Source: Spirochaetia bacterium (GTDB taxonomy: Bacteria > Spirochaetota > Spirochaetia > SZUA-6 > Bin103). From it: a stretch of 64,000 nt of DNA. Both the position numbers and the translations under genes were made by a program. The stretch covers positions 1,437,730 through 1,501,729 of the forward strand of contig OZ241907.1 in NCBI GenBank assembly GCA_965203515.1. Reading direction: 5' to 3'. The notes under the pieces are model-generated. The model was not told the DNA's origin. It saw only the letters and a list, made by a program, of their open reading frames with translations, and did no database searches. Positions 24,148-40,707 of this stretch are shown here, piece after piece; positions within the stretch are counted from its first letter, which is position 1, and each line of letters begins with the position of its first letter.

Positions 24148-24197
24148 GCGATGAAGAACCAAGACGGTCCGGAAACCTGGTGACTGCTTGACTGAGC

Positions 24198-25055: not shown

Positions 25056-25094
25056 GGTTGGCCTCCTCTTGACAGGGTGACTGCTTGACTGGGC

Positions 25095-26066: not shown

Positions 26067-26143
26067 GGCGCGCGGGATTGGCCTCCTCGACAGGATGTTT
26101 GCGCGAGCAAAGGCAGCAGTCATCGACGCGGTCCGGCGCCATC

Positions 26144-27385: not shown

Positions 27386-27407
27386 GGTTCGGCGGCACGG
27401 TGCGCCA

Positions 27408-27540
27408 TTCCGGCCATGCGCGGCAAGGGTGCGGGCAGAGGGCGGCGGATGGAAGACGGCCCGTATGGTCGCCCACTACTCGGCAGGGGCGACCGCCGAA
27501 CGGGGCGCCGTCGCCAAGTACCTGTGAGCGATGAAGAACC
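27408..27540 (+). repeat. internally deleted second copy of the integrase remnant (first 35 bp joined to last approx. 95 bp) plus conserved linker
   Basis: 27408-27442 equals 23505-23539, then jumps to the equivalent of 24064-24160. Same linker ...gtgagcgatgaagaacca.gacggtccggaaac..ggtgactgcttgactgagctcagcc as at 24144-24200. Confidence 0.8.
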
Positions 27541-27577
27541 ATGACGGTCCGGAAACCCGGTGACTGCTTGACTGAGC

Positions 27578-28459
27578 TCAGCCATCCGTTGTCGCCGCCT
27601 CAGGGTCGTCATCCCACGGCTCAGGGTCGTCATCCCACGGCGAGGAGCTTCTCATATAGTAGAACTTCCCGTTTTGCATCGGGCCCCTCGTAGCGCCGTC
27701 GGTCCGAGACCGGTGCACGTAACGGCACCGCCGGCACGCAGACCGGTACTCCGCCCCATCGTGCCCGAGTTCGGACGCAGGCAGGATCGAACGCCATTCC
27801 GGCGACCACTCGTGCGGCTCACCGTCCGGGCAAAGGTCATCCGTGGCATCCATCCACGGCGGCCAGGCCACGTCACGGGGTACCGTGAGTTCCGGTTCCT
27901 GAGGCGGCGCATCGTCCTCCACGGCGTCCATGCCTTCTCCGTGCAGGTCGCCCATGACCCCGCCGTAGGGTTGCGCTTCGTCGACGAACCAGAAGGCACC
28001 GTCGGTACGGTCCCCATACCTCCACTCACGGGTCTTCCCTATCGCCACGAGCACCACGCGCTGCACGTTGTCGGAGGCTCCTTCCAGAAACACTGTTTCC
28101 CGCAACGCCTCCCCGCGGCTTGGCGCCAACACGTACTCCCCGCCTTCGACGCCGCCGAACACCTCGACGCTCAGGTCGTAGGGGCGTAGATGGTCCTCAT
28201 CGCCTTCGTACAGAGGCGACGGCTCCGTATCCGGCTTGACGTACGGGACGCCGCCGAACCGTAGCGACGGATCGACCGTGCGGCCGTCGTCGCTCAACAA
28301 CTCCACGTAATAGAGGTTGTCGGCGTCGCGGCTTGCCTTGATGGCGGCGGCGAACGCGTCGCGGCGGGTCTGCGCTTCAACGGTCACGCGCGTCTGCAGG
28401 CCGCCGAATTCCCGAAGGAGCATCTCGTAACGCCGCAGAGCGGCGCCGGCCGTGGTCAT
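27578..28459 (-). CDS. paralog C of the acidic protein family
   Basis: GAGGAGG SD plus ATG (MTTAGAALRRYEML). Differs from A in a short variable patch and an extended acidic tail (DDDPEPWDDDPEAATTDG). Confidence 0.7.
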   Translation of the reverse strand: MTTAGAALRRYEMLLREFGGLQTRVTVEAQTRRDAFAAAIKASRDADNLYYVELLSDDGRTVDPSLRFGGVPYVKPDTEPSPLYEGDEDHLRPYDLSVEVFGGVEGGEYVLAPSRGEALRETVFLEGASDNVQRVVLVAIGKTREWRYGDRTDGAFWFVDEAQPYGGVMGDLHGEGMDAVEDDAPPQEPELTVPRDVAWPPWMDATDDLCPDGEPHEWSPEWRSILPASELGHDGAEYRSACRRCRYVHRSRTDGATRGPMQNGKFYYMRSSSPWDDDPEPWDDDPEAATTDG

Positions 28460-28701
28460 GGTTGGCCTCCTCGACAGGATGTTCGCGCGAGCATAGCAGC
28501 AAACCGAGTCAAGCACATCACCGGTTCTGGCGTTGGTCGCGTCGCTCGATCAATCGCATCCACCGTATCTCCGTACGTGCGGCGGGCAACTGATCGGCGG
28601 ACTCGTGTGCCCGCCGCCACCCGGAAGGAGACCGCGCGGTCGTGAACCAGGCTGTTGCGCACGTGTCGGCTTTGGCTTTGCGACGGCGCGTCTTTTATTC
28701 G

Positions 28702-29046: not shown

Positions 29047-29142
29047 ATTCGCGATCCTCCTCATGGTTCCAGGACATACTACCAACGCTGAATAGCGCCG
29101 TCCGGCCAGCGCCAGCGCCTCCACGGTTTCCGGGCGACGAAC

Positions 29143-29171
29143 TTGACTCAACTACTTTCCATGGTTATACT
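29143..29171 (+). promoter_or_regulatory. consensus-like sigma70 promoter, leaderless transcript for DUF222/HNH copy 1
   Basis: TTGACT (29143-29148), 17-nt spacer, TATACT (29166-29171). The ATG at 29178 is only 6 nt after the -10. Confidence 0.55.
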
Positions 29172-29177
29172 TATTCC

Positions 29178-30569
29178 ATGAACGGCACTCGTTCCGACAC
29201 CGCCGACGCAGCCATCACGACCACCGTTTCAGCTCTCTCCGACGACCGCCTGCTGGAGCGGACCAAGGAACTGTCCGGCATCGAACACCAGCTCGAAGTC
29301 GTCGTCATCGACCACCTGCGCGAGATAGATAAGCGCCACCTGTACCTGCGCCGCGGGTTCTCAAGCCTCTTCGATTACGCGGTCCGCGAGCTCGGATACA
29401 GCGACGCCGCCGCTTGGCGGCGCCTCAAGGCGATGCGCCTCTGCGCCGACATCGACGGCGTGCGCGAGCGCCTGCAGGACGGCTCGATGACCCTGAACGC
29501 CGCCGCGCAGTTGCAGAACGCCTTTGATCGGCAGGAGCGCAACAGGGATCGCGCGGCGCGCAGCGCGCCGGGCGAGGACGGGTTCGGGGCCGCCGCGCGG
29601 TCGCAGGACGGCTCGGCGCCGGGGCCGACTCAGCCGGCGGAACGGAAGCCGGCGCCGGTGCTGGACCGGTCGGCGCGGCGGGCGCTGGTGGAGCAGGCGG
29701 CCGGCAAGAGCAGCCGGCAGGTGATGCAGTTGCTGGCCGAGGTGGACCCGGAGATGACGGCGCCGCCGGATCGGGTACGCCCGCTCGGCGCCGGGCGCTG
29801 GGAGCTCAAGGCGGTCATCGACGATGAGTGCCGGCGCGGTTTGGAGCTGCTCAAGGGCCTCCTGTCCCACGTCGATCCACACATGACGTTGGGTCAGCTC
29901 ATGGGGCGGCTGGTGCGGGAAGGGCTCGACCGCCACGACCCGGCCCGTCCGCCGCGCGGGAGCCGCACCGGCTCACACGCCGCAGGCGCCGAGCAGACTT
30001 CGGCGGCGAAGACGCAGGCGGCCAGCTCGGCCCAGGCGGCCGGGCAGCCGGGGAACGAAGCGGCTTCGCCGTTGAAGGCGTACCTCGGCCCGGAACACCC
30101 GGACACTTCGGCAGCGAAGCCGGCGGGCGATACCACTTCGGCGCCGAAGCAGGATGCCAACGCGGACAGCGCCGCTCCTTCGGCGGCGAAGGTATCGGCC
30201 CAGGCGACGGGGCAGCCGGGAGACGAAGCCGCTTCGCGGCTGCAGGCGGACCGCTGCCCGGACACTTCGGCGCCGAAGACGCGGTGCCTCGGCCGGCAGG
30301 CTGCGGCGTGTGCAGAGCGGGCGGCTGGCGCGACCGGCCGCTCCATCCCGGCGGCGGTCAAGCGCGCGGTCTGGCGGCGCGACCGGGGCCGCTGCAGCTA
30401 CGTCGACCGCACCAGCGGGCGCTGCTGCGGCTCTCAACACCTGCTGCAGATCGATCACGTCGTGCCGTACGCCCAGGGCGGCGCCGCCGAGCCGAACAAT
30501 CTCCGACTGCTGTGCGCCGCGCATCACCGCCACCGCCACGCAGGCACCGGATTCGGCCGCCCCGGCTGA
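29178..30569 (+). CDS. DUF222 + HNH endonuclease domain protein (REP13E12-like), copy 1
   Basis: N-terminal DUF222-like region and C-terminal HNH (CSYVDRTSGRCCGSQHLLQIDHVVPYAQGGAAEPNNLRLLCAAHHRHRH). The central part is low-complexity with TSAAK/ASPLKA repeats. About 90% identical to 60565..62001. Confidence 0.8.
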   Translation: MNGTRSDTADAAITTTVSALSDDRLLERTKELSGIEHQLEVVVIDHLREIDKRHLYLRRGFSSLFDYAVRELGYSDAAAWRRLKAMRLCADIDGVRERLQDGSMTLNAAAQLQNAFDRQERNRDRAARSAPGEDGFGAAARSQDGSAPGPTQPAERKPAPVLDRSARRALVEQAAGKSSRQVMQLLAEVDPEMTAPPDRVRPLGAGRWELKAVIDDECRRGLELLKGLLSHVDPHMTLGQLMGRLVREGLDRHDPARPPRGSRTGSHAAGAEQTSAAKTQAASSAQAAGQPGNEAASPLKAYLGPEHPDTSAAKPAGDTTSAPKQDANADSAAPSAAKVSAQATGQPGDEAASRLQADRCPDTSAPKTRCLGRQAAACAERAAGATGRSIPAAVKRAVWRRDRGRCSYVDRTSGRCCGSQHLLQIDHVVPYAQGGAAEPNNLRLLCAAHHRHRHAGTGFGRPG

Positions 30570-30703: not shown

Positions 30704-31852
30704 ATGAAGATCGCACGGATCGAGACGCACGTCGTCCGGGGCGGACGCCGCAACCTCTGCATAATCCGCATCGAGTCGAGCGACGGCTTCGTCGGCATCG
30801 GCGAATCGGGGCTGACCGGCCGCGAGCTGGCCGTGCGCGGCGCGGTCGACCACTTCCGGGAGTTCCTGACCGGCCGCGACCCGCGCCGCATCGGGGCGAT
30901 CTGGCAGGAGGTCTACCGCAGCCAGTACTTCGAGGGCGGACGCGTGCTCACCGCGGCGCTGTCGGCGATCGACATAGCCCTGCACGACCTGGTCGCCCGC
31001 TCGCTGGGCGTGCCGGTCTACCAGCTCCTGGGCGGCCGGCAGCGCGACCGCGTGCCGTGCTTCGCCACCACCCGGCGCGGCTTCGGCGCGGAGGCGGTGT
31101 CCGACGTGGTGGGCTTGGTCGACGACGGCTGGCCGTGCGTGCGGCTGCCGGTGCCGGTCGACGACAAGGCCGGCGTCTTCGATCCGCGCGGGTCGATCGG
31201 CGCGGCGGCCGAGACGCTGATCGCGGCCCGCCAGGCGATCGGCCGCCGGGCGGCGCTCGGCATCGATTACCACCACCGCCTGTCGGTGGCGGAGGCGGCC
31301 AGCTTCTGTCAGGCGATGCCGCCCGGCACCATCGACTTCCTGGAAGAGCCGATCCGCGACGAGACGCCGGCGGCCTATCAGGCGCTGCAGCGCATGACGC
31401 ACGTACCGATGGCGATCGGCGAGGAGTTCGCCAGCAAGTGGCAGTTCCTGCCCTACCTGGAGGCCGGCATCCCGGCGTTCGCGCGAGTCGACATCTGCAA
31501 CGTCGGCGGCTTTACCGAGGCCATGAAGGTCGCCGGCTGGTGCGAGGCGCATTACGTCGACCTGATGCCGCATAACCCGCTGGGGCCGGTGAGCACCGCC
31601 GCCAACCTCCATCTGGCCGCCGCCTCCGCGCAGTACGCGTGGCTTGAGGATCGCGGTTCGGAAGGGCTCAACCACTTCGACCGGGAGATGTTCCCGGTCA
31701 TGCCGTTGCTCGACGGGGTCACCTACGCGGTGCCGGACGGCCCGGGCCTTGGCGTCGAGTTCGACCCGGAGGCGCCGCTGGCCAAGGAGCCGTTGCAGCT
31801 CTGGGAGGCGCCCCACCTGCGCCGGCCGGACGGCTCGTACACCAACTGGTAG
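30704..31852 (+). CDS. enolase-superfamily dehydratase (mandelate racemase/muconate lactonizing family; D-galactonate/D-mannonate dehydratase-like)
   Basis: MKIARIETHVVRGG...; metal ligands in the typical DxH...E...D spacing (IDYHH, LEEPI, CNVGG); SD GGGGGAG. Confidence 0.75.
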   Translation: MKIARIETHVVRGGRRNLCIIRIESSDGFVGIGESGLTGRELAVRGAVDHFREFLTGRDPRRIGAIWQEVYRSQYFEGGRVLTAALSAIDIALHDLVARSLGVPVYQLLGGRQRDRVPCFATTRRGFGAEAVSDVVGLVDDGWPCVRLPVPVDDKAGVFDPRGSIGAAAETLIAARQAIGRRAALGIDYHHRLSVAEAASFCQAMPPGTIDFLEEPIRDETPAAYQALQRMTHVPMAIGEEFASKWQFLPYLEAGIPAFARVDICNVGGFTEAMKVAGWCEAHYVDLMPHNPLGPVSTAANLHLAAASAQYAWLEDRGSEGLNHFDREMFPVMPLLDGVTYAVPDGPGLGVEFDPEAPLAKEPLQLWEAPHLRRPDGSYTNW

Positions 31853-31901: not shown

Positions 31902-33128
31902 CTACTCCCGCTTGACCCGCACCCGGAATCCGCGCGGTATCTCCCTGACGTCCCGATCCGTGGCGATGATCGCGTAACCGCCGCCGGAGTGGCTGGTCGT
32001 CCGGCCCGTACCCAGCGCGTCATAGCGGTCGAGCACGGCATCGATCTCCGCGTCGGTGCTGAGCGGCAGTATCTCCCTCCACGTGTCGTGGGTCCGGGTC
32101 AGACACCGCCCCAGTGCATCGAGGTCCCGGTTCAGGATGGCGTCGTAGCAATCCCTGCCCGCGGCGCCCAGCTCCCGAATCGCCGCCGGCGTGAAGTTCC
32201 GAATCGCCAACGGATCGTATCCGGCCGGCGTCTCGCCGATCGGCGCCAGGACCAGGTGCTCCTGCAGCCACGCGCAGACGCCCGCATCGGTAGTCGACTC
32301 GATCTTCTTCGGCCAATACCCCTTGTGCACGCCGTGATCGTAATCGAGCCGGCTGACGCCGGGATGGGTGAGACCGACGTGATCCTGGCTCCCCGACAGG
32401 TAGCCGCTTCGGTGCGCAGGGTCCCGATACCCGTTCGTCAGCTCCCTGCCGTTCTCGACGTGGTACAGCAGGACCGCCAGCTCCTCCGCGGGCAGGTCGG
32501 TGCGCAACCCCTTGCCGACCAGATCGCTCCATACCTTGCGGGTACTGGTGGCAAGGCCGGAGTGCGCGAAGAGATCCGGCCGATATTCGATGCGGACGAC
32601 CGTCGCCGACCCGGGTCCATACCGGTTCACGTACGGCTGGTCGATCCATCCGCCGGCCAGACAGAGCCGGTAGGGAAGATGACGGCCGCTCTTCGCCCGC
32701 AATTCGGTCGAACTCCTGCCTGGCAGGCCCGGGTGCGGCTCCCGCTTCAGGACCACGTACTCGACGCCCAACGACCGGCACAGCTTCCGCTTGCCGGGCG
32801 TGTGGCCATCTTCGTTGACCACGAAGTAATCCGGGCGAATGGCCGTCAACTCATTGCGGAAGTCGAGCATGCCGAAGCCGGTGGCGATCATCGCCTCCTT
32901 GACCGGCTTGAGGTTCCGTACGATGTACGCGCGTTCCTCCTGACCATAGGTTGGATCGACCTGCTTCAGCATCCTGATGCTGGCGTCCGTACCGATCACC
33001 ACGTACAGATCGCCGAACGCCGATGCCTGCATGAGAAACTCGAGATGTCCCGCGTGAAACAGATCGAAACATCCGCTCACCATCACCTTCTTGTGGTTCA
33101 CCTTCTTGTCGTTCGCCATCATCTCCAT
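31902..33128 (-). CDS. bifunctional nucleotidyltransferase (cytidylyltransferase-like, HxGH) / GHMP-family kinase
   Basis: N-terminus VMVSGCFDLFHAGHLEFL is the PF01467-type H-x-G-H motif (TagD/RfaE-II-like). The C-terminal half has a GHMP-like P-loop remnant (HSGLATSTRKV) and a TSHSGGGYAII tail. Gene GC of about 60% versus about 72% nearby. Confidence 0.5.
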   Translation of the reverse strand: MEMMANDKKVNHKKVMVSGCFDLFHAGHLEFLMQASAFGDLYVVIGTDASIRMLKQVDPTYGQEERAYIVRNLKPVKEAMIATGFGMLDFRNELTAIRPDYFVVNEDGHTPGKRKLCRSLGVEYVVLKREPHPGLPGRSSTELRAKSGRHLPYRLCLAGGWIDQPYVNRYGPGSATVVRIEYRPDLFAHSGLATSTRKVWSDLVGKGLRTDLPAEELAVLLYHVENGRELTNGYRDPAHRSGYLSGSQDHVGLTHPGVSRLDYDHGVHKGYWPKKIESTTDAGVCAWLQEHLVLAPIGETPAGYDPLAIRNFTPAAIRELGAAGRDCYDAILNRDLDALGRCLTRTHDTWREILPLSTDAEIDAVLDRYDALGTGRTTSHSGGGYAIIATDRDVREIPRGFRVRVKRE

Positions 33129-34402
33129 CCCAGGGTCGCGGCGCCGAAGGCGCGTTCGAACTCGTCATTGGATGCGTACCGCCACCCGAACGCCCGGTCC
33201 CAGATCGCCGCCTTCTCCATGCACAGGTACAGGAACACCCGGCCGTGCCACGGCGCCAGCGCCCGATACATGGTGTGGAACATCCGCACCTTGAGGTCGT
33301 CGGGATAGGTGAGCTTGCCGTGCGGGTCGGCGACCAGGTCGGCCTGCAGGATGCGGGTCGGCTCGCCGCGCTGCCGGATGCGCTTCATCACCGGCTTGAT
33401 GAAGGTGACCGATCCCAGCGAGATGAAGGCGACCTCCGCCGGGTCGAACCGGTCGATCAGGCGGGCCGCCAGCGCCGGATACTCGGTCTCCCAGCCGTCG
33501 TAGTGGACCATCGGATGGAAGTGGAACGCCACCTTGCGGCCAAGATCCGCGAAGCGGCGGGCGGCGGCCAGCCGGCGCTCCAGGGGAGCGGTGAAGTGCT
33601 CCTCGTGCTCGATGACGGCCGCGGTGTTGAGCGACCAGCTACAGACCAGGTTCGGCGGCGGCGCCGGGCGCTCCAGGAAGTAGCTGACGTTGGCCGACTT
33701 GGTCTTCAGCTCCAGCAGGACGTTGGGATGCTCGGCCGCGAACCGGCACAGCTCGTCCAGGATGCCGCCGCGGTTGCCCCAGACCAGCGAATCGGAGGAC
33801 TGGCCGGTGCCGATGTGGTAGAAGCGCCGGTCGTCCAGCTCGATCGCGCGCAACTTGCGTCCCAGGTCGCGGTCGACGGTCACGCGGTCGCCGTAGAAGG
33901 TCTGGATCGTGCAGTAGCTGCAGCCGAACGAGCAGTTTTGCACCGCGTCGATCGTCTTGAGGTTGCAGCACAGGGTGCGGTCGGATCGAACCGGGCAGTC
34001 GCCGAACACCTCCGCCTCCCCGGCCGCGTCGGCAAAGCGGAGCGGCGGCCGGCGCGGCGCCGGCGCCGGGCGGCGGTCGTACCGGGTCGGCTCGCGCCGC
34101 AGCCGGTCCAGGTGCTCGCGCAGCGCGCCGATCAGCCGCTTCTTGCGCTCGCGCGCCGGCAGGGCGGAGTCGATATCCGACTCGGCGCGCGCCCACCACG
34201 CGCCGATGCCGGGCTCGCCCCACATCGCCAGGTCGCGGGCGGCCTGGCACAGGTGCCGCACCTCCTGCGCCGTGCAGCGGTAGCGCGACACCGCGCCGTC
34301 GATGCAGGCGCGCGCAGCCGGATCAAGCCGGTCGTACAAGGTCCCCGGATACCGGGTCGGCCCCTGATGCACGGTCGTCCCCGGATGCCGGGTCGCCGCC
34401 AT
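33119..34402 (-). CDS. radical SAM protein, spore-photoproduct-lyase (SplB) family, with about 120-aa N-terminal extension
   Basis: NCSFGCSYCTIQ matches the SPL-type CX3CXYCX2Q cluster (compare B. subtilis GCMGHCHYCYLQ). Confidence 0.55.
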   Translation of the reverse strand: MAATRHPGTTVHQGPTRYPGTLYDRLDPAARACIDGAVSRYRCTAQEVRHLCQAARDLAMWGEPGIGAWWARAESDIDSALPARERKKRLIGALREHLDRLRREPTRYDRRPAPAPRRPPLRFADAAGEAEVFGDCPVRSDRTLCCNLKTIDAVQNCSFGCSYCTIQTFYGDRVTVDRDLGRKLRAIELDDRRFYHIGTGQSSDSLVWGNRGGILDELCRFAAEHPNVLLELKTKSANVSYFLERPAPPPNLVCSWSLNTAAVIEHEEHFTAPLERRLAAARRFADLGRKVAFHFHPMVHYDGWETEYPALAARLIDRFDPAEVAFISLGSVTFIKPVMKRIRQRGEPTRILQADLVADPHGKLTYPDDLKVRMFHTMYRALAPWHGRVFLYLCMEKAAIWDRAFGWRYASNDEFERAFGAATLGWR

Positions 34403-34429
34403 GCGCTACGTCTCGCGCGCCGGCAAACC

Positions 34430-35149
34430 TCAGCCGGCCACCGGCACGCCGTCGAGCTTGCCGTCGGCGTGCATGGCGTTCCATTCGTCCAGGAAGGTGC
34501 GGTTCCACTGATCGGTGAGCGGGTGGTCCATCATCTCCTTGAGGGTCGTCCAGAAGATGATGATGCCGTCCGCGCCGGCCCGCAGCGCTGCGTACGCCAC
34601 GTCGACCGAGCGCACCAGCGCCGCCGTGACGAACGGGCGCTGCGCCCAGCCGTCGAACATGGCGCGGCACTCGCGCACCAGCCGCACCGGATCGTCCTGG
34701 AGCTGCTTGACCGGCTCGCAGAACGGCAGCACGTGCGTGGCGCCCGCCTGCGCGACCGCGGCCGCCTGCGTCAGCGAGAAGACCGTGGTGCAGAAGGTCT
34801 CCACGCCTTCGGCGGCGAACGCCCGAAAGGCGCCAAGACCCTGCGTCGTGCACGGCACCTTGATGATGATGTTGTCCGCCATGGCCGTGAAGACGTGCCC
34901 GACGTCGATCAGCTCGGCCGTGGTGTGGCCATCGATCTCCACCACGACCGGCTTGTCCGTCATGTCCAGGTAGCGCCGGATCACCTGCTGCAAGGTCCCG
35001 TACTTCTTGACCAACTGGTTCTGCACGACCGTGTTGGTGACGATCCCGGCAGCGCCGCGGTCCATCCACTCGCCCAGGTCGGCCGGGTCGCCCGCCAGCC
35101 AGATCGCCGGCCCCCGCCCCTCGCTACGCGCCTGCTGCGCGGTCTTCAT
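34430..35149 (-). CDS. transaldolase-family protein (fructose-6-phosphate aldolase / TalC-like, short form)
   Basis: IIIKVPCTTQGLGAF (Schiff-base Lys region) and VSPF-like ATHVLPF; 239 aa is typical of the FSA/TalC subfamily. Confidence 0.7.
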   Translation of the reverse strand: MKTAQQARSEGRGPAIWLAGDPADLGEWMDRGAAGIVTNTVVQNQLVKKYGTLQQVIRRYLDMTDKPVVVEIDGHTTAELIDVGHVFTAMADNIIIKVPCTTQGLGAFRAFAAEGVETFCTTVFSLTQAAAVAQAGATHVLPFCEPVKQLQDDPVRLVRECRAMFDGWAQRPFVTAALVRSVDVAYAALRAGADGIIIFWTTLKEMMDHPLTDQWNRTFLDEWNAMHADGKLDGVPVAG

Positions 35150-35171
35150 GTTGATCGTCCTCCTCCAGCGC

Positions 35172-35825
35172 TCAGAACGCGATGGCCAGCTCGATGCTCC
35201 ACGGAAAGCGCAGGCCGCTGTTCACGTTGGCCACGACGTTTTCCATACCTTTCATGCCGGTCTTGAATCCGGTGAAGGGGCTGAGCGCGAGCTGGTAGCT
35301 CACGCCGACGCGCGGAGTGAGCGCGACCGGTCCCCAGATGACCCGGTAGCCGACGTGCGCGCCCGCTCCTATCAGCACCGTCCACGACTCCAGTTTTGTC
35401 CCGGTCGGATCTTTGAGCGCCGAATCCTGGAACCGGGCGGAGGCGTACCCCGGGGAGATCCACGCCCCCGCGAACACGCCGGTCGGCGACACGCCGTTCA
35501 CGTAGTAGTTGGCGCCGGCGGCGATCGACACGGACCAGACGTCGTAGTCATCCCGCACGATGCCCGTGCTAGCGGGCGGCAGCGGATTGAAGATACCAAA
35601 TTTCGCGTTGTAATAGGCGGGGATGACGAAGATGCTGAGGTCGTCGTCGAGCACCTGCTCGAAGGACCCGCTGTAGAGGCCGACCATCGGTCCCAGGAGG
35701 TTGAGGCCGATGACCGTGGTCTTGTCCTCCGCCGTCTGGGCGAAGCTCGGCGCGGCGACCAGCATGCCGAGCGCGACGATCAGCGGCGCGAACCTGAAGC
35801 GAAACGACCGATTCATGGCCGTCAT
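35172..35825 (-). CDS. outer-membrane beta-barrel protein (signal peptide, C-terminal ...LAIAF)
   Basis: Signal peptide MTAMNRSFRFRFAPLIVALGMLVAAPSFAQ, alternating amphipathic strands and a terminal Phe. Implies a diderm host. Confidence 0.55.
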   Translation of the reverse strand: MTAMNRSFRFRFAPLIVALGMLVAAPSFAQTAEDKTTVIGLNLLGPMVGLYSGSFEQVLDDDLSIFVIPAYYNAKFGIFNPLPPASTGIVRDDYDVWSVSIAAGANYYVNGVSPTGVFAGAWISPGYASARFQDSALKDPTGTKLESWTVLIGAGAHVGYRVIWGPVALTPRVGVSYQLALSPFTGFKTGMKGMENVVANVNSGLRFPWSIELAIAF

Positions 35826-35829
35826 GGTA

Positions 35830-36987
35830 TCACCGGGACAGCACGTTGCAAAGCGCGGCCACCACCGCCTCGATCTGCGCCGGCTCGATGATCAGCGGCG
35901 GCAGCAGGCGGATCACGGTGGTGCCGGCCGGCAGCGCCAGCACCCCCTGTTCCATCAGCGCGGTCAGGTGCGGCTGCGACCGTTCCTTGAGCTCGATGCC
36001 GATCATCAGGCCGTACTGGCGGAGCTCCCGCACGCAGGCCGGCCGCGACCGCTCGAACAGCTCCGCAAAGTACGCTCCGGACTCGGCCGCCCGGCGGGCC
36101 AGGTCGTGCGCGACCAGGTAATCGATGGTGGCCGCCGCCGCCGCGCAGGCCAGCGGGTTGCCGCCGAACGTGGAGCCGTGCACGCCGACCGCCGGCTTGA
36201 CCGCATCGCTGAACAACGCCGCCCCCATCGGCACGCCGCCGGCGATGCCCTTGGCCACGCACATGACGTCCGGCTGCACGCCGCTGTGCTCGACCGCGAA
36301 CATGCGGCCGGTGCGGCAGAAGCCGGTCTGGATCTCGTCGGCGATCAACAGCGCGCCGCGCTCGTCGCACAGCCGGCGGACGCCGCGCAGGTACGCGTCG
36401 TCGGCGCGGTGCACCCCGCCCTCCCCCTGGATCGGCTCCAGCACCACCGCCGCGGTGCGGTCGGTGACCGCCTCCGCCAGCTTGGCGAGGTTGTTGTACG
36501 GGACGTGCGCGATGCCGGGAACCAGCGGCGCGAACGGCTCCCGGTACTGCTTCTTGTGGGTGGCGCTCAGCGCCCCCATGGTGCGGCCGTGGAACCCGCG
36601 CATCGCGGCGACGATGCCGGTGCGGCCGGTCGCCAGACGCGCGAACTTGAAGGCGGTCTCGATCGCCTCCGCGCCGGAGTTGCACAGATAGGCGCGCGTC
36701 AGGCGCTCGGGCGCCGCCGACACCAGCTTGGCCAGGAGCGCCGCGCGCCGGTCGTTGTAGAACACGCCGCCGCAGGTGATCAGCGTCCGCGCCTGCCGGC
36801 CGATCGCCTCCGCCACCACCGGGTGGGCATGACCCAGGCAGGCCACGCCGGTGCCGGCGGCGCAGTCGAGGTAGCTGCGCCCCGCCTCGTCCCAGACCAC
36901 CGCGCCTTCGCCCCGCACCAGGGTCAGGTCGCGCTTCGGATAGACCTCGAACGCGTAGCGTCGTTCCGTCTCTTGAACGTTCATCAT
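35830..36987 (-). CDS. lysJ: class III aminotransferase, acetylornithine/[LysW]-aminoadipate-semialdehyde aminotransferase (ArgD/LysJ)
   Basis: PLP-lysine region (CVAKGIAGGVPMGA), class III fold, context with lysWXYZ. Confidence 0.8.
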   Translation of the reverse strand: MMNVQETERRYAFEVYPKRDLTLVRGEGAVVWDEAGRSYLDCAAGTGVACLGHAHPVVAEAIGRQARTLITCGGVFYNDRRAALLAKLVSAAPERLTRAYLCNSGAEAIETAFKFARLATGRTGIVAAMRGFHGRTMGALSATHKKQYREPFAPLVPGIAHVPYNNLAKLAEAVTDRTAAVVLEPIQGEGGVHRADDAYLRGVRRLCDERGALLIADEIQTGFCRTGRMFAVEHSGVQPDVMCVAKGIAGGVPMGAALFSDAVKPAVGVHGSTFGGNPLACAAAAATIDYLVAHDLARRAAESGAYFAELFERSRPACVRELRQYGLMIGIELKERSQPHLTALMEQGVLALPAGTTVIRLLPPLIIEPAQIEAVVAALCNVLSR

Positions 36988-37775
36988 CCGATGCTGGTGC
37001 CGCGTCCCGCCAAGCCGTCGCGCAGGGGGTGTTCGGTGCGCCCGTCGCAGAGTATGACCTGCGCGCCGCCCAGCGCAATCAGCTCCTTGAGCGCGCGCAG
37101 CTTGCGCCGGATGCGGCCGACGGCCTGCTCCTCGAAGCGGTCGAGCGCGGCGGCGTCGAGTTCGCGCACGACCGAAGTCTCGTCATCCGCGCGCGCCAGG
37201 AACCCCGGCGCTTCGATGAGCTGGAACACGCGCCGCGCGCGCAGCTCGGCGTGCAGCGCCACCACGATGTCGTCGTTCTCGGAATTGATGGCGATGCCTT
37301 CTTCGTCCGCGATCGGGATGCTGATCACCGGCGTATAGCCGCCGTCGAGCAGCGTGCGCAGCAGCGCGCCGTTGACGCCCGCCGGCTTGCCGGAGCGGTC
37401 GCGCACGATGAACGTCCGGCCGTCGCGCCGCACGCGGATCCCCCGGTTGCGCCGCCCCCGGATCAGGCGCCCGTCCAGACCGGTCAGCCCGACCGCGTCG
37501 ACGCCGGACCGCTGGCAGAGCTCGACGAGCTGCGTGTTCCGCAGCCCTGCGTAGGCCAGCATGATCATGTCGAGGGCGCGATCGTCGGAGTAGACGCTGG
37601 AGTAGCCGGCCATCGACGTCAGCACCTGCTTGGGGGCGCCCAGGCGCTCGGCCAGCTCGTCGCGCAACGCGTTGGCGCCGTGCACGACCACCGCCGGTTC
37701 GCCCAGCTCGGCCAGGTCCGCCGCGATCGCCGGCAGGTTGATGGCGCTGCCGCCGCCGACCTTGATGATGTTCAC
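36984..37775 (-). CDS. lysZ: amino-acid kinase family, [LysW]-aminoadipate/glutamate kinase (LysZ/ArgB)
   Basis: MNIIKVGGGSAINL N-terminus, AAK fold, ATGA overlap with lysJ. Confidence 0.75.
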   Translation of the reverse strand: MNIIKVGGGSAINLPAIAADLAELGEPAVVVHGANALRDELAERLGAPKQVLTSMAGYSSVYSDDRALDMIMLAYAGLRNTQLVELCQRSGVDAVGLTGLDGRLIRGRRNRGIRVRRDGRTFIVRDRSGKPAGVNGALLRTLLDGGYTPVISIPIADEEGIAINSENDDIVVALHAELRARRVFQLIEAPGFLARADDETSVVRELDAAALDRFEEQAVGRIRRKLRALKELIALGGAQVILCDGRTEHPLRDGLAGRGTSIG

Positions 37776-37778
37776 CGT

Positions 37779-38459
37779 TCAGGGTCCCGTGGATGTGGTT
37801 GGGTAGGCGCGCACGTCACCGGTGGGGAGCGGCCGCCACTCGCCCGCGCGGGGCGCGCCGGCTGCGCCGCCCGCAGGCAGCGGATCGGAACAGACTACCA
37901 GCCGCCCCGGACCGCGCGCAACGTGCATCCGAAAGTAGTCCGGCGAGTCGTTGAACCGGTTGGTGACCCGGACCGCCGCGGCGTCGGCGATGATGACGTT
38001 CATCGCGCGCACGTAGCGCGTCCTTCTCTCGATGATCGCAAGCCCCTTGCGCATCGCTTCGGTCAGGTCGCCGCGGTCGAAGCGGCGGATGAAGTTGTAG
38101 ACCTTCTCGGCCCCGATGCGACCGGTCTCCTTCACCCGCACGCCGCGCAACTCGCCATTGAACAGGAACACGGACCGCCCGTCGGTGAACGGCATGTTGT
38201 TGCGCACCTCGATCCCTTCGTCGCGGAACGCGCTGCGGGCGTGCGCGACCAGCAACCGCGTGCGCGCGCGCGGCGGCGACCGGTCCTCCCAGACCGGGGC
38301 GATGTCGTGATGGAGCCGCCAGCCGTCCGGCGTCATCCAGGCGCAGCCCCAGCCGTGGCCCTGGTACTCGGAGCTGGTGCGGGCGATCTCCGCGAACGGC
38401 TGCAGGTAGCGCTGCAGCTCGAACGGCTCGGCGGCCTGGACCGCAAGCAGGCGACACAC
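37779..38459 (-). CDS. class II glutamine amidotransferase (YafJ-type, N-terminal Cys) embedded in the LysW cluster
   Basis: MCRLLAV... followed by the GHGWG and NG Ntn-amidotransferase motifs. Unusual position between lysY and lysZ. Confidence 0.65.
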   Translation of the reverse strand: MCRLLAVQAAEPFELQRYLQPFAEIARTSSEYQGHGWGCAWMTPDGWRLHHDIAPVWEDRSPPRARTRLLVAHARSAFRDEGIEVRNNMPFTDGRSVFLFNGELRGVRVKETGRIGAEKVYNFIRRFDRGDLTEAMRKGLAIIERRTRYVRAMNVIIADAAAVRVTNRFNDSPDYFRMHVARGPGRLVVCSDPLPAGGAAGAPRAGEWRPLPTGDVRAYPTTSTGP

Positions 38460-38478
38460 GGGCGGGACGCGCGAACGC

Positions 38479-39507
38479 TCAGACCGGATGCAGGCCGGGA
38501 AAGCCGAGTCCGGCGCGCTCGTCGAATCCGTACATGACGTTGAACGCCTGCACCGCCTGGCCGGCCGCTCCCTTCATCAGATTGTCCAGCGCGCTCATCA
38601 CCACCAGACGCCGCGAGCCGGCGTCGAGCTCGAAGCCGACGTCGCAGTAGTTGCTGCCGGCCAGGATCTTCGGCTCCGGGTAGCGGTAGATGCCGCGGCG
38701 GCCCTTGACGATCCGCACGAACGGCTCGTCCGCGTAGGCGCGGCGGAAGATGCGCCACACCGCCTTCTCATCGAGCGATTCCGTGAGGAAGACGTGCGCG
38801 GTCGCCAGCAGGCCGCGCACCAGCTCCACCGCGGTCGCGGAGAAGCTGAGCGGCAGCCGGTCGCCGAGCTCCTGCCGTATCTCCGCCTGGTGACGGTGTC
38901 CGGTCGGCTTGTAGGAGCGCACGCTGCCGGCTCGCTCGGGGTGGTGGCTGGCCGCGGTCGCCTCGTTGCCGCCTTCGCTCGACCCGGCCTTGACCTCCAC
39001 CACGACCTGGTCGACCACGCCGGCGGCCGCCAGCGGGAGCAGCGCCAGGATCGTCGCGGTGGCGTTGCACCCGCAGCCGGAGACCAGCGCCGCTCCCGCC
39101 AGCCGGTCGCGGTGCAGCTCCGGCATCCCGTACACGGCGTCGGCCAGCAGCTCCGGCCGCGGATGGCTGCGTCCGTACCAGCGCTCGTAGCCATCGGGGT
39201 CGCGCAGGCGGAAGTCGGCGCTGAGGTCGACGATGCGCTCGGCGACGCCGCGGAACCGGTCGATCCGGCCCATCGCCCGCCCGTGCGGGAGACACAGGAA
39301 CAACGCGTCGCACGGGTCCAGCTCGTCGGCCCTGACGAACTGCAGGTCGGTGACCCCGCGCAGGTTGGGATGCGCGTGGTGGACGTAGGTGCCGGCCAGC
39401 CGCTCGGAGGTCGCCTGCGCGACCGATACCTGCGGGTGGAACAGCAGCAGCCGCAGCAGCTCGCCGCCCACGTAGCCGGAGGCGCCGGCGATCGACGCGC
39501 GTATCAC
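38479..39507 (-). CDS. lysY: N-acetyl-gamma-glutamyl-phosphate / [LysW]-aminoadipyl-phosphate reductase (ArgC/LysY)
   Basis: [21 protein letters not shown] (NADP Rossmann) and catalytic Cys (SGCGCNATA). Confidence 0.85.
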
Positions 39508-40349
39508 GCCCCGGTCTGGCTGGCGCGGGCGATGGTGTAATCGACGACGTGGCCGGGAATGTCGACGCCGGTGGTGTCGATGCTGTTGCTGAACTCCATC
39601 GTGTAGTTTACCTCGTTGACCAGCAGGCCGTCATCGCTCTCCAGCAGGTCGACGCCGACCAGGCCGCCGCCCACGGCCCGCGCCGCGCGCACGGCAAGCT
39701 CGCCCAGTTCCGCGGTGACCGGCGCGCCGCTGGCGGTGCCGCCGAGCGCGGTATTGGTCTTCCAGTGCGCGGATGTCCGGTAGATGGCGGCGATGCAGCG
39801 GTCCCCCACCACGAAGCAGCGGATGTCGCGGCCCGGCTTGTCGATGTACTTCTGCACGAAGAAGATCGAGTGGTGGTAGGAACCGAGGATGCGCTTGTGC
39901 TCCAGGATCGATTCGGCCGCTTCCCGGTCGTTCACCTTGGCGAGCAGACGCCCCCAGGAGCCGACCGCCGGCTTCAGGACCACCGGGTAGCCGATCTCCT
40001 CGATCGCCTGCAGCGCGGACCGGTCGGTAAAGGCCACGCGGACCTCCGGCTGCGGCACGCCGTGCTCGCGCAGCGCGACGGCGGTGAGGATCTTGTCGCC
40101 GCACACCTGCGCGACCCGGTAGCTGTTGAGGCAGCGTATGCCGGCGCTTTCCAGGAGGCGCAGGGCGTGCAGCGCCCGCGAGTGGTTGATGCACCGCTCC
40201 AGGACCACGTCGACCGGCGGGCAGCGGTGCAGGTCGAATACCAGCTCGCGGTCGTCGATCAGCGTCACCTGCACGCCGCGCGCGCGGAACGCGGCAAGGA
40301 GGAGCTTCTCCTCCTTGCGTATCAGCGAGTGCAGGACGCCGATTCTCAC
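39504..40349 (-). CDS. lysX: ATP-grasp ligase, RimK/LysX family (attaches amino acid to the LysW C-terminus)
   Basis: ATP-grasp motifs ([28 protein letters not shown]). The GTG start overlaps the lysW stop (GTGA). Confidence 0.8.
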
Positions 40350-40510
40350 TCGCCCCAGTCCTCGTCTTCCTCCGGCGCCTCGGCCAGCGTGACGGGATCG
40401 AGCGAGGTCACCTCCAACCCCGTGCCGCACTCGGGACAGTCCTTCGTCTCCGACTTCTCGACGTTGGCGGGCAGCGGTACGTCGGCATCGCACACGGGAC
40501 AAGCAGGCAT
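40346..40510 (-). CDS. lysW: amino-group carrier protein LysW (54 aa; zinc ribbon + acidic C-terminal EDWGE)
   Basis: Own translation (below the track size cutoff): [54 protein letters not shown], with AGGAGG SD 7 nt upstream. Coordinates are plus or minus 2 nt. Confidence 0.8.
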
Positions 40511-40612
40511 CGATTCATCCTCCTATCGAATGGATGGTGTTCTGAATCGGTAACTGTACTGCGATGACCGGCATACGGACAAGGGGAGCCGCCGTCGCGG
40601 GCGCCGCCTCCG

Positions 40613-40680
40613 ATTTTCATTAATTCACGTTCATCTCATTAATGCGACTTGACAAGGATAATGAACCTTGCTTCACTGCC
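40613..40680. promoter_or_regulatory. AT-rich island in the divergent lysW/fbpA intergenic region with Fur-box-like hexamers and a -35-like TTGACA
   Basis: ttttCATTAATtcacgttcatcTCATTAATgcgacTTGACAagGATAATGAAccttgcttcact sits in an otherwise 70% GC context, directly upstream of an iron ABC transporter. Confidence 0.4.
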
Positions 40681-40707
40681 TCCATTCTCATCAAGGAGGT
40701 CTCCCCC

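What the first reader, a model, noticed from the sequence alone, without database searches (positions are those of the whole stretch)
31902..40510. LysW amino-group-carrier cluster with an embedded class-II amidotransferase and unusual neighbours (FSA-type aldolase, SPL-family radical SAM, low-GC cytidylyltransferase/GHMP-kinase fusion, enolase-superfamily dehydratase)
lysW(54 aa)-lysX-lysY-[YafJ-type GATase]-lysZ-lysJ are chained by GTGA/ATGA overlaps. A glutamine amidotransferase inside a LysW operon is not part of the canonical lysine or arginine LysW pathways. No LysK-type deacylase is nearby. Immediately downstream on the same strand are an outer-membrane protein gene, a fructose-6-phosphate-aldolase-family enzyme (an aldehyde + dihydroxyacetone C-C bond former), an SPL-type radical SAM enzyme and a lower-GC bifunctional nucleotidyltransferase/GHMP kinase. 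Across the gap is a sugar-acid dehydratase. In Streptomyces, LysW homologues (AmCP) carry glutamate semialdehyde into specialised amino-acid biosynthesis via C-C-forming enzymes. This arrangement could be an analogous, undescribed pathway rather than plain lysine/arginine synthesis.
Basis: partly seen in the sequence, partly recalled or inferred. Interest (0 to 1): 0.65.

Follow-up and report, generated by a model that had tools for sequence, protein, structure and literature searches.

The report
LysW lysine operon with novel release enzyme
This is a carrier-protein (LysW) lysine-synthesis operon in which the usual final release enzyme, LysK, appears to be replaced by an unrelated cysteine amidase found in the same operon across many bacterial phyla; the neighbouring aldolase, radical-SAM and kinase-like genes look like unrelated bystanders.

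Summary
On the minus strand, lysW-lysX-lysY-[226-aa class-II-GATase-fold gene]-lysZ-lysJ lie at 35830-40510, followed tightly by four more genes. No LysK-type M20 peptidase was found in the 64 kb.

- The six-gene unit recurs, mostly in this order, in 87 non-redundant loci from Spirochaetia, Gammaproteobacteria, Acidobacteriota, Gemmatimonadota, Bacteroidota and Patescibacteria.
- The neighbours occur only in the closest Spirochaetia relatives, with insertions between them.
- The radical SAM gene sits in unrelated contexts elsewhere.

The operon looks like aminoadipate-to-lysine synthesis. LysX carries the Thermus aminoadipate-specific signature F-I-T-NS. Distant versions include homocitrate synthase or abut lysyl-tRNA synthetase.

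The embedded gene is the interesting part. It is a stand-alone Ntn hydrolase whose closest solved structure is EgtC, a gamma-glutamyl amidase. In distant lineages it occupies the terminal LysK slot (W-X-Y-Z-J-GAT), and it never co-occurs with an M20 gene nearby.

My best explanation, inferred and untested, is that it hydrolyses the LysW-gamma-glutamyl-lysine bond and so replaces LysK. I found no paper making this link.

The parts
40511..40707 (-). Intergenic region upstream of lysW, shared with the divergent ABC-transporter binding-protein gene. It carries an AGGAGG ribosome-binding site 8 nt before the lysW ATG. The presumed operon promoter is not identified.
   Evidence: Sequence read. No Rfam family, including the lysine riboswitch. 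No sigma-70-like or terminator-like site of note.
40346..40510 (-). lysW: 54-aa amino-group carrier protein with a Cys4 zinc ribbon, an acidic tail and C-terminal EDWGE. Its last Glu carries the substrate on its gamma-carboxyl.
   Evidence: PF21344 57.3 bits; TIGR01206 55.8 bits, above the cut-off of 53.2. Aligns end to end with T. kodakarensis and T. thermophilus LysW chains 5k2m_E and 3wwl_A. pI 4.05.
39504..40349 (-). lysX: ATP-grasp ligase that loads the amino acid onto LysW. It is predicted to be alpha-aminoadipate specific. The GTG start overlaps the lysW stop (GTGA).
   Evidence: TIGR02144 331 bits, above 275.6. Best PDB match is T. thermophilus LysX, 3vpd/1uc8, at 304/277 bits; the bifunctional T. 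kodakarensis enzyme scores 225 and ArgX 177. The signature residues are F-I-T-NS, the LysX type of PMC12998189.
38479..39507 (-). lysY: [LysW]-aminoadipyl-phosphate reductase (ArgC family).
   Evidence: TIGR01850 382 bits. Best PDB matches are T. thermophilus LysY, 2ozp/5ein/5eio, at about 400 bits.
37779..38459 (-). Stand-alone class-II-GATase-fold Ntn hydrolase, 226 aa, starting Met-Cys. Proposed [LysW]-gamma-glutamyl-lysine hydrolase, a functional replacement for LysK.
   Evidence: AF2 pLDDT 86.9. The top solved structure is EgtC, at TM 0.76 and E 1e-12. C2, R75, N101-G102 and G116-A117-x-K119 are invariant down to 24% identity. 87 of 87 loci have it next to LysW-pathway genes. It takes the LysK slot in L175-L177. 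No M20 gene lies nearby in 0 of 77 loci, against 7 of 10 without it.
36984..37775 (-). lysZ: [LysW]-aminoadipate kinase (amino-acid kinase family).
   Evidence: NF010659 222.6 bits against a cut-off of 223. Best PDB match is T. thermophilus LysZ, 3u6u/3wwm, at 171/168 bits.
35830..36987 (-). lysJ: class-III aminotransferase that converts the LysW-bound semialdehyde to LysW-gamma-lysine. The ATG overlaps the lysZ stop (ATGA).
   Evidence: PF00202 369.5 bits; TIGR00707 430 bits, above 410; best named model is LysJ_Th_th at 440.6 bits, below its strict cut-off.

Best explanation
The six genes at 35830-40510 form a self-contained LysW (amino-group carrier protein) module that converts alpha-aminoadipate to lysine.

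Proposed steps:
1. LysX ligates aminoadipate to the gamma-carboxyl of the C-terminal Glu of LysW.
2. LysZ phosphorylates the bound substrate.
3. LysY reduces it to the semialdehyde.
4. LysJ transaminates it to LysW-gamma-lysine.
5. The embedded Ntn hydrolase carries out the release step, which is normally done by the M20 metallopeptidase LysK.

Proposed release chemistry: after removal of the initiator Met, Cys2 attacks the gamma-glutamyl amide. Lysine leaves through its alpha-amine. The gamma-glutamyl thioester is then hydrolysed, regenerating free LysW. This is the chemistry of class-II amidotransferase glutaminase domains, and of EgtC acting on a gamma-glutamyl-amine.

Shown here: gene identities, operon conservation, fold and catalytic residues, LysK-slot occupancy, and absence of M20 nearby.
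Inferred: the substrate of the hydrolase, and lysine rather than ornithine as the product.

The downstream OMP-like, TAL/FSA, SPL radical SAM and cytidylyltransferase-fusion genes are lineage-specific neighbours, not part of the pathway.
For: 1. Every canonical component has its best match to the T. thermophilus lysine enzymes.

2. The LysX signature is F-I-T-NS, the aminoadipate type of PMC12998189. It is found in the window and in 72 of 82 LysX copies in related loci; 9 more have F-V-T-NS.

3. Distant versions of the operon point to lysine.
- One includes a homocitrate-synthase-like gene: HCS_D2 34.3 bits, above 27; best NCBIfam model is homocitrate synthase (L177).
- Two are followed directly by class-I lysine-tRNA ligase: TIGR00467 354 and 329 bits (L175, L176).

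4. The GAT-like gene is a fixed member of the operon.
- 87 of 87 non-redundant loci have it within 400 nt of a LysW-pathway gene on the same strand.
- 66 loci show W-X-Y-GAT-Z-J and 3 show W-X-Y-Z-J-GAT.
- Two merged gene calls, LysY+GAT and GAT+LysZ, confirm adjacency in further lineages.

5. W-X-Y-Z-J-GAT mirrors the W-X-Y-Z-J-M20 order found in GAT-less LysW loci (L154, L159, L163, L168).

6. GAT and M20 are complementary.
- An ArgE query finds an M20 gene within 10 kb in 0 of 77 GAT loci that contain lysJ.
- It finds one in 7 of 10 GAT-less loci that contain lysJ (Fisher p=2e-8, loci not phylogenetically independent).
- GAT is absent from all 80 Thermus-LysX-seeded loci.

7. The fold is confident (pLDDT 86.9). 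The nearest solved structure is EgtC, an Ntn amidohydrolase that cleaves a gamma-glutamyl-amine bond (TM 0.76, E 1e-12; sequence profile E 8e-6).

8. The nucleophile Cys2, the Arg of HARSA and the Asn-Gly oxyanion pair are invariant at 24-31% identity.

9. The protein is always stand-alone, about 210-250 aa, with no acceptor or synthase domain. A hydrolase role is therefore more likely than ammonia transfer.

10. It is basic: pI 10.1 here, family median 8.3, against LysW at pI 4.05. Known AmCP partners use positively charged patches (PMC11726168).
Against: - No biochemical or genetic test exists.
- Whole genomes could not be scanned, so a LysK orthologue elsewhere is not excluded. In Thermus-type loci lysK is also outside the cluster.
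- Absence of M20 rests on a single ArgE tblastn query, although that query did detect LysK-like genes at 22-29% identity in control loci.
- The hhalign placement of the GlmS alpha-amino-binding Asp opposite an invariant Gly has very low confidence.
- Assigning lysine rather than ornithine for this subfamily rests on a five-residue motif and on context in distant lineages. No aminoadipate-supply genes (hcs, lysT/U, hicdh) were found in the 64-kb window.
- A KEGG-based study of marine Gemmatimonadota reads such genes as an ornithine route (PMC11651109).
- Many host phyla need the DAP pathway for peptidoglycan, so a second lysine route is unexplained.
Confidence: 0.6

Rival explanations
1. The ten co-directional genes (lysW through the cytidylyltransferase fusion) form one operon for an undescribed specialised amino acid. 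The TAL/FSA aldolase would extend a LysW-bound semialdehyde, and the GATase, radical SAM and nucleotidyltransferase/kinase would tailor the product.
For: All ten genes are on one strand with gaps of -10 to +27 nt, and no terminator-like site lies between lysJ and the next genes. TAL follows lysJ, sometimes after an insertion, in all 12 related Spirochaetia genomes. Streptomyces and Serratia AmCP clusters set a precedent for carrier-bound semialdehyde chemistry (PMC11726168).
Against: - OMP, TAL, SPL and ENO are absent from all non-Spirochaetia loci carrying the six-gene unit.
- A CreD gene interrupts OMP-TAL in relatives.
- SPL is missing in L018, and the cytidylyltransferase fusion is found only in conspecific contigs and has lower GC.
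- SPL homologues occur alone in unrelated contexts.
- LysX is aminoadipate-type.
- LysJ is a canonical class-III enzyme that would consume the semialdehyde, whereas the DADH clusters use sugar-aminotransferase-like enzymes.
Confidence: 0.05
2. The Ntn hydrolase is an accessory enzyme rather than the release enzyme. It might strip mis-loaded or stalled adducts, such as LysW-gamma-Glu or LysW-gamma-aminoadipate, to recycle the carrier. It might act as a small-molecule gamma-glutamyl amidase or glutaminase. A conventional LysK elsewhere in the genome would release lysine.
For: In Thermus the true lysK lies outside the cluster, so absence nearby proves little. Class-II GATase-fold stand-alone proteins such as YafJ and 3mdn have unknown or varied substrates. 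Whole genomes could not be checked.
Against: - It occupies exactly the LysK slot in W-X-Y-Z-J-GAT operons, including those of small-genome Patescibacteria.
- It is strictly complementary with operon-encoded M20 genes.
- It is retained next to lysY even where lysZ and lysJ have moved away (7 W-X-Y-GAT loci).
- It is conserved as strongly as the core enzymes, at 55-60% identity across phyla.
Confidence: 0.2
3. The module makes ornithine from glutamate, for arginine or for ornithine-type peptidoglycan, or makes both ornithine and lysine. The Ntn hydrolase would then release ornithine.
For: The KEGG orthologues are shared between the two LysW routes. A study of marine Gemmatimonadota assigns these genes to the LysW-glutamate/ornithine route (PMC11651109). 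T. thermophilus LysZ and LysY accept LysW-Glu derivatives (PMC12998189). No aminoadipate-supply genes were found in the window.
Against: The LysX motif F-I-T-NS is the strictly aminoadipate-specific Thermus type, not ArgX (I-Y-V-GF) or bifunctional (Y-I-T-NA). Homocitrate synthase and lysyl-tRNA synthetase are linked to the operon in distant lineages. All enzymes match Thermus lysine enzymes best.
Confidence: 0.15

Closest known systems
Thermus thermophilus LysW-mediated alpha-aminoadipate lysine pathway (LysW, LysX, LysZ, LysY, LysJ, LysK)
   Same: It has the same carrier protein (zinc ribbon, C-terminal EDWGE) and the same four carrier-dependent enzymes, each matching the Thermus protein best in the PDB. 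The LysX aminoadipate signature F-I-T-NS is identical.
   Different: No M20 LysK was found in or near the operon. Instead, a class-II-GATase-fold Ntn hydrolase sits between lysY and lysZ. That gene is absent from all 80 Thermus-LysX-seeded loci. Homocitrate synthase and homoaconitase are not clustered in this window.
EgtC, the ergothioneine-pathway Ntn amidohydrolase (PDB 4zfj/4zfk/4zfl)
   Same: It is a stand-alone protein of about 230 aa with the class-II amidotransferase fold (TM 0.76) and an N-terminal Cys nucleophile. EgtC hydrolyses a gamma-glutamyl-amine amide bond and releases the amine through its alpha-amino group. That is the same bond type that links LysW to lysine.
   Different: Identity is only about 22%. 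It scores 36.6 bits on TIGR03442 against a cut-off of 218.65. No egt genes lie nearby, and it is always embedded in LysW operons. The presumed gamma-glutamyl donor is the C-terminal residue of a protein, not a free dipeptide.
LysK / ArgE-type M20 metallopeptidase ([LysW]-lysine hydrolase)
   Same: It is proposed to catalyse the same reaction. It occupies the same operon position (after lysJ) in Patescibacteria and Aminicenantales loci, compared with M20 in L154, L159, L163 and L168.
   Different: The fold is unrelated and the mechanism differs: a cysteine Ntn hydrolase with a covalent thioester, against a di-metal hydrolase. There is no sequence similarity.
Streptomyces/Serratia AmCP secondary-metabolite clusters (DADH type: vazabitide, ficellomycin, azinomycin)
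   Same: They use a LysW-like carrier with LysX-, LysZ- and LysY-like enzymes.
   Different: Those clusters divert the glutamate semialdehyde into C-C bond formation and use fold-type-I sugar-aminotransferase-like enzymes (PMC11726168). Here LysX is aminoadipate-type, the aminotransferase is canonical LysJ, and no C-C-forming enzyme is conserved with the operon.

Membership tests
LysW/AmCP-mediated lysine biosynthesis (Thermus type) | Small zinc-ribbon carrier protein with an acidic tail ending in EDWGE | tested here: met
   TIGR01206 55.8 bits, above 53.2; PF21344 57 bits. End-to-end alignment with LysW chains, including CxxC...CxxC and EDWGE.
LysW/AmCP-mediated lysine biosynthesis (Thermus type) | LysX ATP-grasp ligase with the aminoadipate-specific signature (F182-I192-T203-N258-S259 in T. 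thermophilus) | tested here: met
   TIGR02144 331 bits, above 275.6. Window residues F179-I189-T200-N255-S256 align to the Thermus signature.
LysW/AmCP-mediated lysine biosynthesis (Thermus type) | LysZ kinase, LysY reductase and LysJ aminotransferase | tested here: met
   LysZ: NF010659 222.6 bits against a cut-off of 223 (borderline); best PDB match TtLysZ 3u6u. LysY: TIGR01850 382 bits; best PDB match TtLysY. LysJ: TIGR00707 430 bits, above 410.
LysW/AmCP-mediated lysine biosynthesis (Thermus type) | LysK, an M20 metallopeptidase that releases lysine from LysW | tested here: not met
   No ArgE-like hit at E<=1 in the window or in 86 related loci. None at E<=1e-3 in six further loci. No M20 Pfam family in the gene lists. 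The rest of the genome could not be searched.
LysW/AmCP-mediated lysine biosynthesis (Thermus type) | Aminoadipate supply (homocitrate synthase, homoaconitase, homoisocitrate dehydrogenase, aminoadipate aminotransferase) in the same genome | not testable with these tools
   None was found in the 64-kb window. A homocitrate-synthase-like gene is inside the operon in L177.
Class-II (Ntn) glutamine amidotransferase | N-terminal Cys nucleophile, Asn-Gly oxyanion hole and Arg binding the substrate alpha-carboxylate | tested here: met
   C2, N101-G102 and R75 are invariant in A1, A2 and A3. They align to GlmS R73 and N98-G99 (a low-confidence alignment with a sensible motif match). The fold matches GlmS and PurF glutaminase domains.
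Class-II (Ntn) glutamine amidotransferase | A fused or partnered synthase/acceptor domain that receives ammonia | tested here: not met
   Family members are stand-alone proteins of about 200-250 aa. The only long members are merged calls with LysY or LysZ.
Class-II (Ntn) glutamine amidotransferase | Asp that binds the free alpha-amino group of glutamine (GlmS D123) | tested here: inconclusive
   hhalign puts GlmS D123 opposite the invariant G116 of the G-A-[EQ]-K motif, but the alignment probability is very low.
EgtC (ergothioneine amidohydrolase) | Equivalog-level sequence match and association with egtA/B/D genes | tested here: not met
   TIGR03442 36.6 bits against a cut-off of 218.65. No egt-type neighbours appear in any locus gene list. 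Only the fold is shared.
AmCP-type secondary-metabolite cluster (DADH type) | A C-C-forming enzyme and a sugar-aminotransferase-like enzyme conserved with the AmCP genes, with glutamate loaded on the carrier | tested here: not met
   TAL/FSA occurs only in one Spirochaetia clade. The aminotransferase is class-III LysJ. The LysX signature is aminoadipate-type. The comparison features come from PMC11726168.

The most novel reading that the evidence does not exclude
In this Spirochaetia clade, the LysW module and the tightly packed downstream genes (small OMP-like protein, divergent TAL/FSA aldolase, SPL-family radical SAM, recently acquired cytidylyltransferase fusion) are co-transcribed. Together they make or export a modified lysine- or aminoadipate-derived compound. 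The Ntn hydrolase would release the carrier-bound product. This would be an AmCP-dependent specialised pathway outside the actinomycetes.
Probability: 0.05. Interest if true: 0.75.

Novelty: new variant of a known kind. Interest (0 to 1): 0.5.

Why it matters
If the Ntn hydrolase is the LysW-lysine hydrolase, the amino-group carrier protein pathway has a second, mechanistically unrelated release enzyme: a cysteine thioester enzyme in place of a di-metal peptidase.

This enzyme would be widespread.
- At least 507 GTDB species match the conserved peptides.
- 114 clusters at 50% identity score E<=1e-30.
- Carriers span Spirochaetia, Gammaproteobacteria, Acidobacteriota, Gemmatimonadota, Bacteroidota and Patescibacteria.

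Pathway-reconstruction tools that require LysK (K05831) would score the route as incomplete. They would then mis-call lysine or ornithine auxotrophy in many uncultured, host-associated and small-genome bacteria.

It would also give biochemists a new enzyme for cleaving gamma-glutamyl isopeptide bonds at a protein C-terminus, and a further case of non-orthologous gene displacement in core metabolism.

The finding does not point to a new natural-product pathway.

Tried and rejected
- Rfam scan of the whole window, and a permissive scan of the lysW leader: no lysine riboswitch or any other family.
- Promoter and terminator scan of 30.5-41 kb: nothing informative, so operon boundaries remain untested.
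- All-vs-all clustering of flank ORFs from 80 loci. Stop-to-stop ORFs in high-GC DNA made it noisy. It showed only lineage-specific neighbours such as NagB/LmbE, SecA, RadC and a glycoside hydrolase in Longimicrobiales, and no conserved lysine or arginine genes.
- Single-sequence AF2 of the cytidylyltransferase fusion, to test the GHMP-kinase claim: unusable, pLDDT 31.7. PDB sequence search of its C-terminal half: not significant.
- AFDB fold search: the library was unavailable.
- Nishida 1999, for the Thermus cluster map: not held. I answered the question another way, by seeding a metagenome scan with Thermus LysX.
- Cluster-member look-up, to find a cultured carrier or a curated name: no names returned.
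- Literature searches pairing LysW or AmCP with amidotransferase, EgtC, YafJ, Ntn hydrolase or 'missing LysK': no relevant paper. Subscription journals are not covered.
- Glutamine-dependent amination by the GATase: considered and rejected. There is no acceptor domain, and LysJ already supplies the amine.
- hhalign against the GlmS glutaminase domain: gave only a low-confidence alignment.

Full report
**Observation**

The window is about 70% GC. Ten genes lie head to tail on the minus strand between 31902 and 40510.

Profile searches identify them as follows.

| Gene | Coordinates | Main evidence |
|---|---|---|
| lysW | 40346-40510 | 54 aa; TIGR01206 above cut-off |
| lysX | 39504-40349 | TIGR02144 331 bits |
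| lysY | 38479-39507 | TIGR01850 382 bits |
| Class-II-GATase-like protein | 37779-38459 | 226 aa; PF13230 21 bits, just below cut-off; weak EgtC hit |
| lysZ | 36984-37775 | NF010659 222.6 bits against 223 |
| lysJ | 35830-36987 | TIGR00707 430 bits |
| OMP-like protein | 35172-35825 | 217 aa; signal-peptide-like N-terminus; no family |
| TAL/FSA-family protein | 34430-35149 | PF00923 |
| SPL-family radical SAM | 33119-34402 | PF20903 |
| Cytidylyltransferase-like fusion | 31902-33128 | 408 aa; Pfam domain only on residues 17-145 |

- An enolase-superfamily gene lies convergent at 30704-31852.
- Junctions W/X, X/Y and Z/J are 4-nt overlaps. Y/GAT is +19 nt and GAT/Z is +3 nt. The four downstream genes follow with gaps of -10 to +27 nt.
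- The 'GHMP kinase' label is not verified: E=0.014, no PDB sequence match, and a failed AF2 model.
- No M20/LysK-like gene was found in the window by ArgE tblastn or by Pfam on most other ORFs.

**Source**

Identical proteins occur on metagenome contigs of up to 457 kb with the same ten-gene arrangement. The nearest named genomes are high-GC 'Spirochaetia bacterium' MAGs of 4.6-7.4 Mb, at about 80-85% identity for the GATase-like protein. Many other carriers are MAGs whose names suggest sponge-associated origin. This is my inference from record titles only.

**What is conserved**

I seeded a scan of one genome per GTDB species with an alignment of the GATase-like protein. 507 stretches encoded a relative, and the best 80 loci were fetched.

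I then ran tblastn with all window proteins against these loci.
- W-X-Y-GAT-Z-J is kept in order in Gammaproteobacteria, Acidobacteriota, Gemmatimonadota (Longimicrobiales, Palauibacter), Bacteroidota and Spirochaetia.
- OMP, TAL, SPL and the enolase gene appear only in the 12 Spirochaetia genomes.
- The cytidylyltransferase fusion appears only in conspecific contigs. Together with its lower GC (0.64 against about 0.70), this fits a recent insertion.
- In some relatives a CreD membrane-protein gene is inserted between OMP and TAL.
- SPL is missing in the most distant Spirochaetaceae locus, L018.

Precomputed Pfam gene lists for three further carriers show the same six genes in entirely different surroundings.

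SPL homologues at 54-67% identity sit in unrelated neighbourhoods with no LysW, TAL or cytidylyltransferase genes.

Over 87 non-redundant loci, the GATase-like gene always lies within 400 nt of a LysW-pathway gene on the same strand. The gene orders are:

| Order | Loci |
|---|---|
| W-X-Y-GAT-Z-J | 66 |
| W-X-Y-GAT | 7 |
| W-X-Y-Z-J-GAT | 3 |
| Truncated or variant | 11 |

The functional unit is the six genes.

**Lysine or ornithine**

Each enzyme matches the T. thermophilus lysine enzyme best among solved structures:
- LysX 3vpd/1uc8, at 304/277 bits, against 225 for the bifunctional T. kodakarensis enzyme and 177 for ArgX.
- LysZ 3u6u.
- LysY 2ozp/5ein.
- LysW 3wwl/5k2m.

A published five-residue signature separates LysX (F-I-T-NS), ArgX (I-Y-V-GF) and bifunctional enzymes (Y-I-T-NA) (PMC12998189). 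The window LysX reads F-I-T-NS. So do 72 of 82 LysX copies in related loci, and nine more read F-V-T-NS.

Distant versions of the operon add independent evidence.
- In an Aminicenantales contig, a homocitrate-synthase-like gene sits between lysY and lysZ (L177). It scores HCS_D2 34.3 bits, above 27, and its best NCBIfam model is homocitrate synthase, below cut-off.
- In two Patescibacteria contigs, the operon is followed directly by class-I lysine-tRNA ligase (TIGR00467 354 and 329 bits).

I therefore favour aminoadipate to lysine. Ornithine is not excluded. No aminoadipate-supply genes were found in the window, and a KEGG-based study reads such genes in marine Gemmatimonadota as an ornithine route (PMC11651109).

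**The embedded gene**

- Its family is large and well conserved. 2615 database hits score E<=1e-3. In the 50%-identity library, 114 clusters score E<=1e-30, and nearly all are 200-250 aa and stand-alone.
- Two long members are merged calls, LysY+GAT and GAT+LysZ. They confirm adjacency in further lineages.
- M1-C2-R3, G36-W37-G38, H73-x-R75-x-A77, F100-N101-G102 and G116-A117-x-K119 are invariant down to 24% identity.
- AF2 gives a confident model: pLDDT 86.9, pTM 0.88.
- Foldseek against the PDB ranks EgtC first (TM about 0.76, E 1e-12). The glutaminase domains of PurF and GlmS and two uncharacterised stand-alone proteins follow.
- A sequence profile finds 3mdn and EgtC at E of 1e-6 to 1e-5.

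EgtC is an Ntn amidohydrolase that cleaves a gamma-glutamyl-amine bond. The substrate-carrier linkage in the LysW pathway is exactly such a bond, between the gamma-carboxyl of the C-terminal Glu and the alpha-amine of lysine (PMC12998189; bioRxiv 10.1101/2021.12.28.474397).

With no acceptor domain, ammonia transfer is unlikely. The protein is basic, with pI 10.1 here and a family median of 8.3, while LysW has pI 4.05. Known carrier-dependent enzymes use positive patches.

**Relation to LysK**

I seeded a metagenome scan with T. thermophilus LysX. This returned 80 LysW loci that all lack the GATase-like gene, with only noise at E<=10.

- In these loci the E. coli ArgE query detects an M20 gene inside or at the end of the operon in eight cases. 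Examples are W-X-Y-Z-J-M20 in L154, L159, L163 and L168, and W-X-M20-Y-Z-J in L143. This shows the query is sensitive enough.
- The same query finds nothing in the window or in any GAT-type locus.
- Among loci that contain lysJ, an M20 gene lies within 10 kb in 0 of 77 GAT-type loci and in 7 of 10 others (Fisher p=2e-8, not corrected for phylogeny).
- In Patescibacteria and Aminicenantales the distant subfamily occupies the terminal position, W-X-Y-Z-J-GAT, which is the LysK slot.

This pattern is what non-orthologous displacement of LysK would produce. It is not proof. In Thermus itself lysK lies outside the cluster, and I could not scan whole genomes.

**Mechanism proposed**

1. LysX loads aminoadipate on LysW. 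This follows from homology and the signature motif.
2. LysZ, LysY and LysJ convert it to LysW-gamma-lysine. This follows from homology.
3. After Met removal, Cys2 of the Ntn hydrolase attacks the gamma-glutamyl amide. R75 holds the free alpha-carboxylate of the terminal Glu, and N101-G102 stabilise the oxyanion. Lysine leaves, and water resolves the thioester to regenerate LysW. This step is inferred from the fold, the invariant residues and the gene context.
4. A low-confidence alignment puts the Asp that binds glutamine's free alpha-amine in GlmS opposite an invariant Gly. That would suit a peptide-extended glutamyl group. I treat it only as a lead.

**Comparison and novelty**

The unit is a LysW/AmCP lysine module that fails one defining feature, LysK. 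In its place it carries an enzyme that resembles EgtC in fold but is not an EgtC family member: 36.6 bits against a cut-off of 218.65, and no egt neighbours.

It does not fit the DADH-type AmCP natural-product clusters. The LysX type is wrong, the aminotransferase is the wrong class, and no C-C-forming partner is conserved.

Searches of open-access papers and bioRxiv found no link between LysW or AmCP and amidotransferase, EgtC, YafJ or Ntn hydrolases. A Caldithrix abyssi genome paper lists a LysWXZYJ+Hcs locus spanning eight locus tags and names no LysK (PMC5317091). Source databases call the protein only 'glutamine amidotransferase' or 'hypothetical'.

I rate it a new variant of a known kind, with moderate interest. 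It is testable, and it matters for metabolic reconstruction of uncultured bacteria. The specialised-pathway idea that motivated the finding is not supported.

Noticed in passing
window 31902-33128 (-): A cytidylyltransferase-like fusion protein of 408 aa, with about 260 C-terminal residues of unassigned function. Its GC is lower (0.64) than its neighbours'. It is present only in conspecific contigs and absent from the 12 related Spirochaetia genomes, so it looks like a recent insertion between the SPL gene and the enolase-superfamily gene.
   Followed up: partly
window 33119-34402 (-); L172-L174: The SPL-family radical SAM protein has an N-terminal extension of about 150 aa. It belongs to a large family (2203 hits) spread over Omnitrophota, Calditrichota, Gammaproteobacteria, Gemmatimonadota and others. 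Family members always appear as lone genes in varied contexts, and their function is unknown.
   Followed up: partly
window 24063-28516: Three paralogous copies (79-99% DNA identity) of a gene of about 0.9 kb with unknown function, ending in WDDDPEPWDDDPE. They flank a DAO-family FAD oxidoreductase at 26144-27475.
   Followed up: no
window 29140-30569 and 60527-62001 (+): Two copies, about 93% identical, of a gene encoding a long low-complexity protein with a C-terminal HNH endonuclease domain and internal 85-120-nt repeats. One copy lies next to the enolase-superfamily gene at the edge of the cluster. This may be a mobile or selfish element.
   Followed up: no
window 15177-23699 (-): A glutamine-synthetase-like gene, a class-II GATase-domain gene and a sarcosine-oxidase-alpha/GCV_T fusion lie together. 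This resembles a gamma-glutamylmethylamide/N-methylglutamate methylamine-utilisation cluster. It includes a second, unrelated class-II GATase in the window.
   Followed up: no
L007 13292-14689; L014 13301-14527: In related Spirochaetia genomes a CreD inner-membrane-protein gene (PF06123, E 1e-128) is inserted between the OMP-like gene and TAL. This breaks the string that is contiguous in the window.
   Followed up: yes
L175 9493-11793; L176 7820-10129: In Patescibacteria (Gottesman- and Roizmanbacteria) the LysW operon is followed directly by a class-I lysyl-tRNA synthetase fused to a B3_4 domain. L175 also has LysE-exporter-like and class-I/II aminotransferase genes upstream. A lysine-synthesis module in such reduced genomes is notable in its own right.
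   Followed up: partly
L086 7189 and 9146; L139, L158, L160: Some LysW operons carry two LysX paralogues. In L086 the second copy has a divergent signature (I-I-A-SS), which suggests separate loading enzymes for two substrates, as in Sulfolobus LysX/ArgX.
   Followed up: no
window 35172-35825 (-): A 217-aa protein with a signal-peptide-like N-terminus and a C-terminal aromatic residue. It has no family assignment (autotransporter beta-domain E=0.014). It is conserved directly after lysJ at only 55-70% identity in the Spirochaetia clade.
   Followed up: partly
window 58552-60282 (-): A DegT/DnrJ/EryC1-type (sugar) aminotransferase lies about 18 kb from the LysW operon. This is the aminotransferase class used by AmCP natural-product clusters, but here it is not adjacent to any LysW gene.
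   Followed up: no
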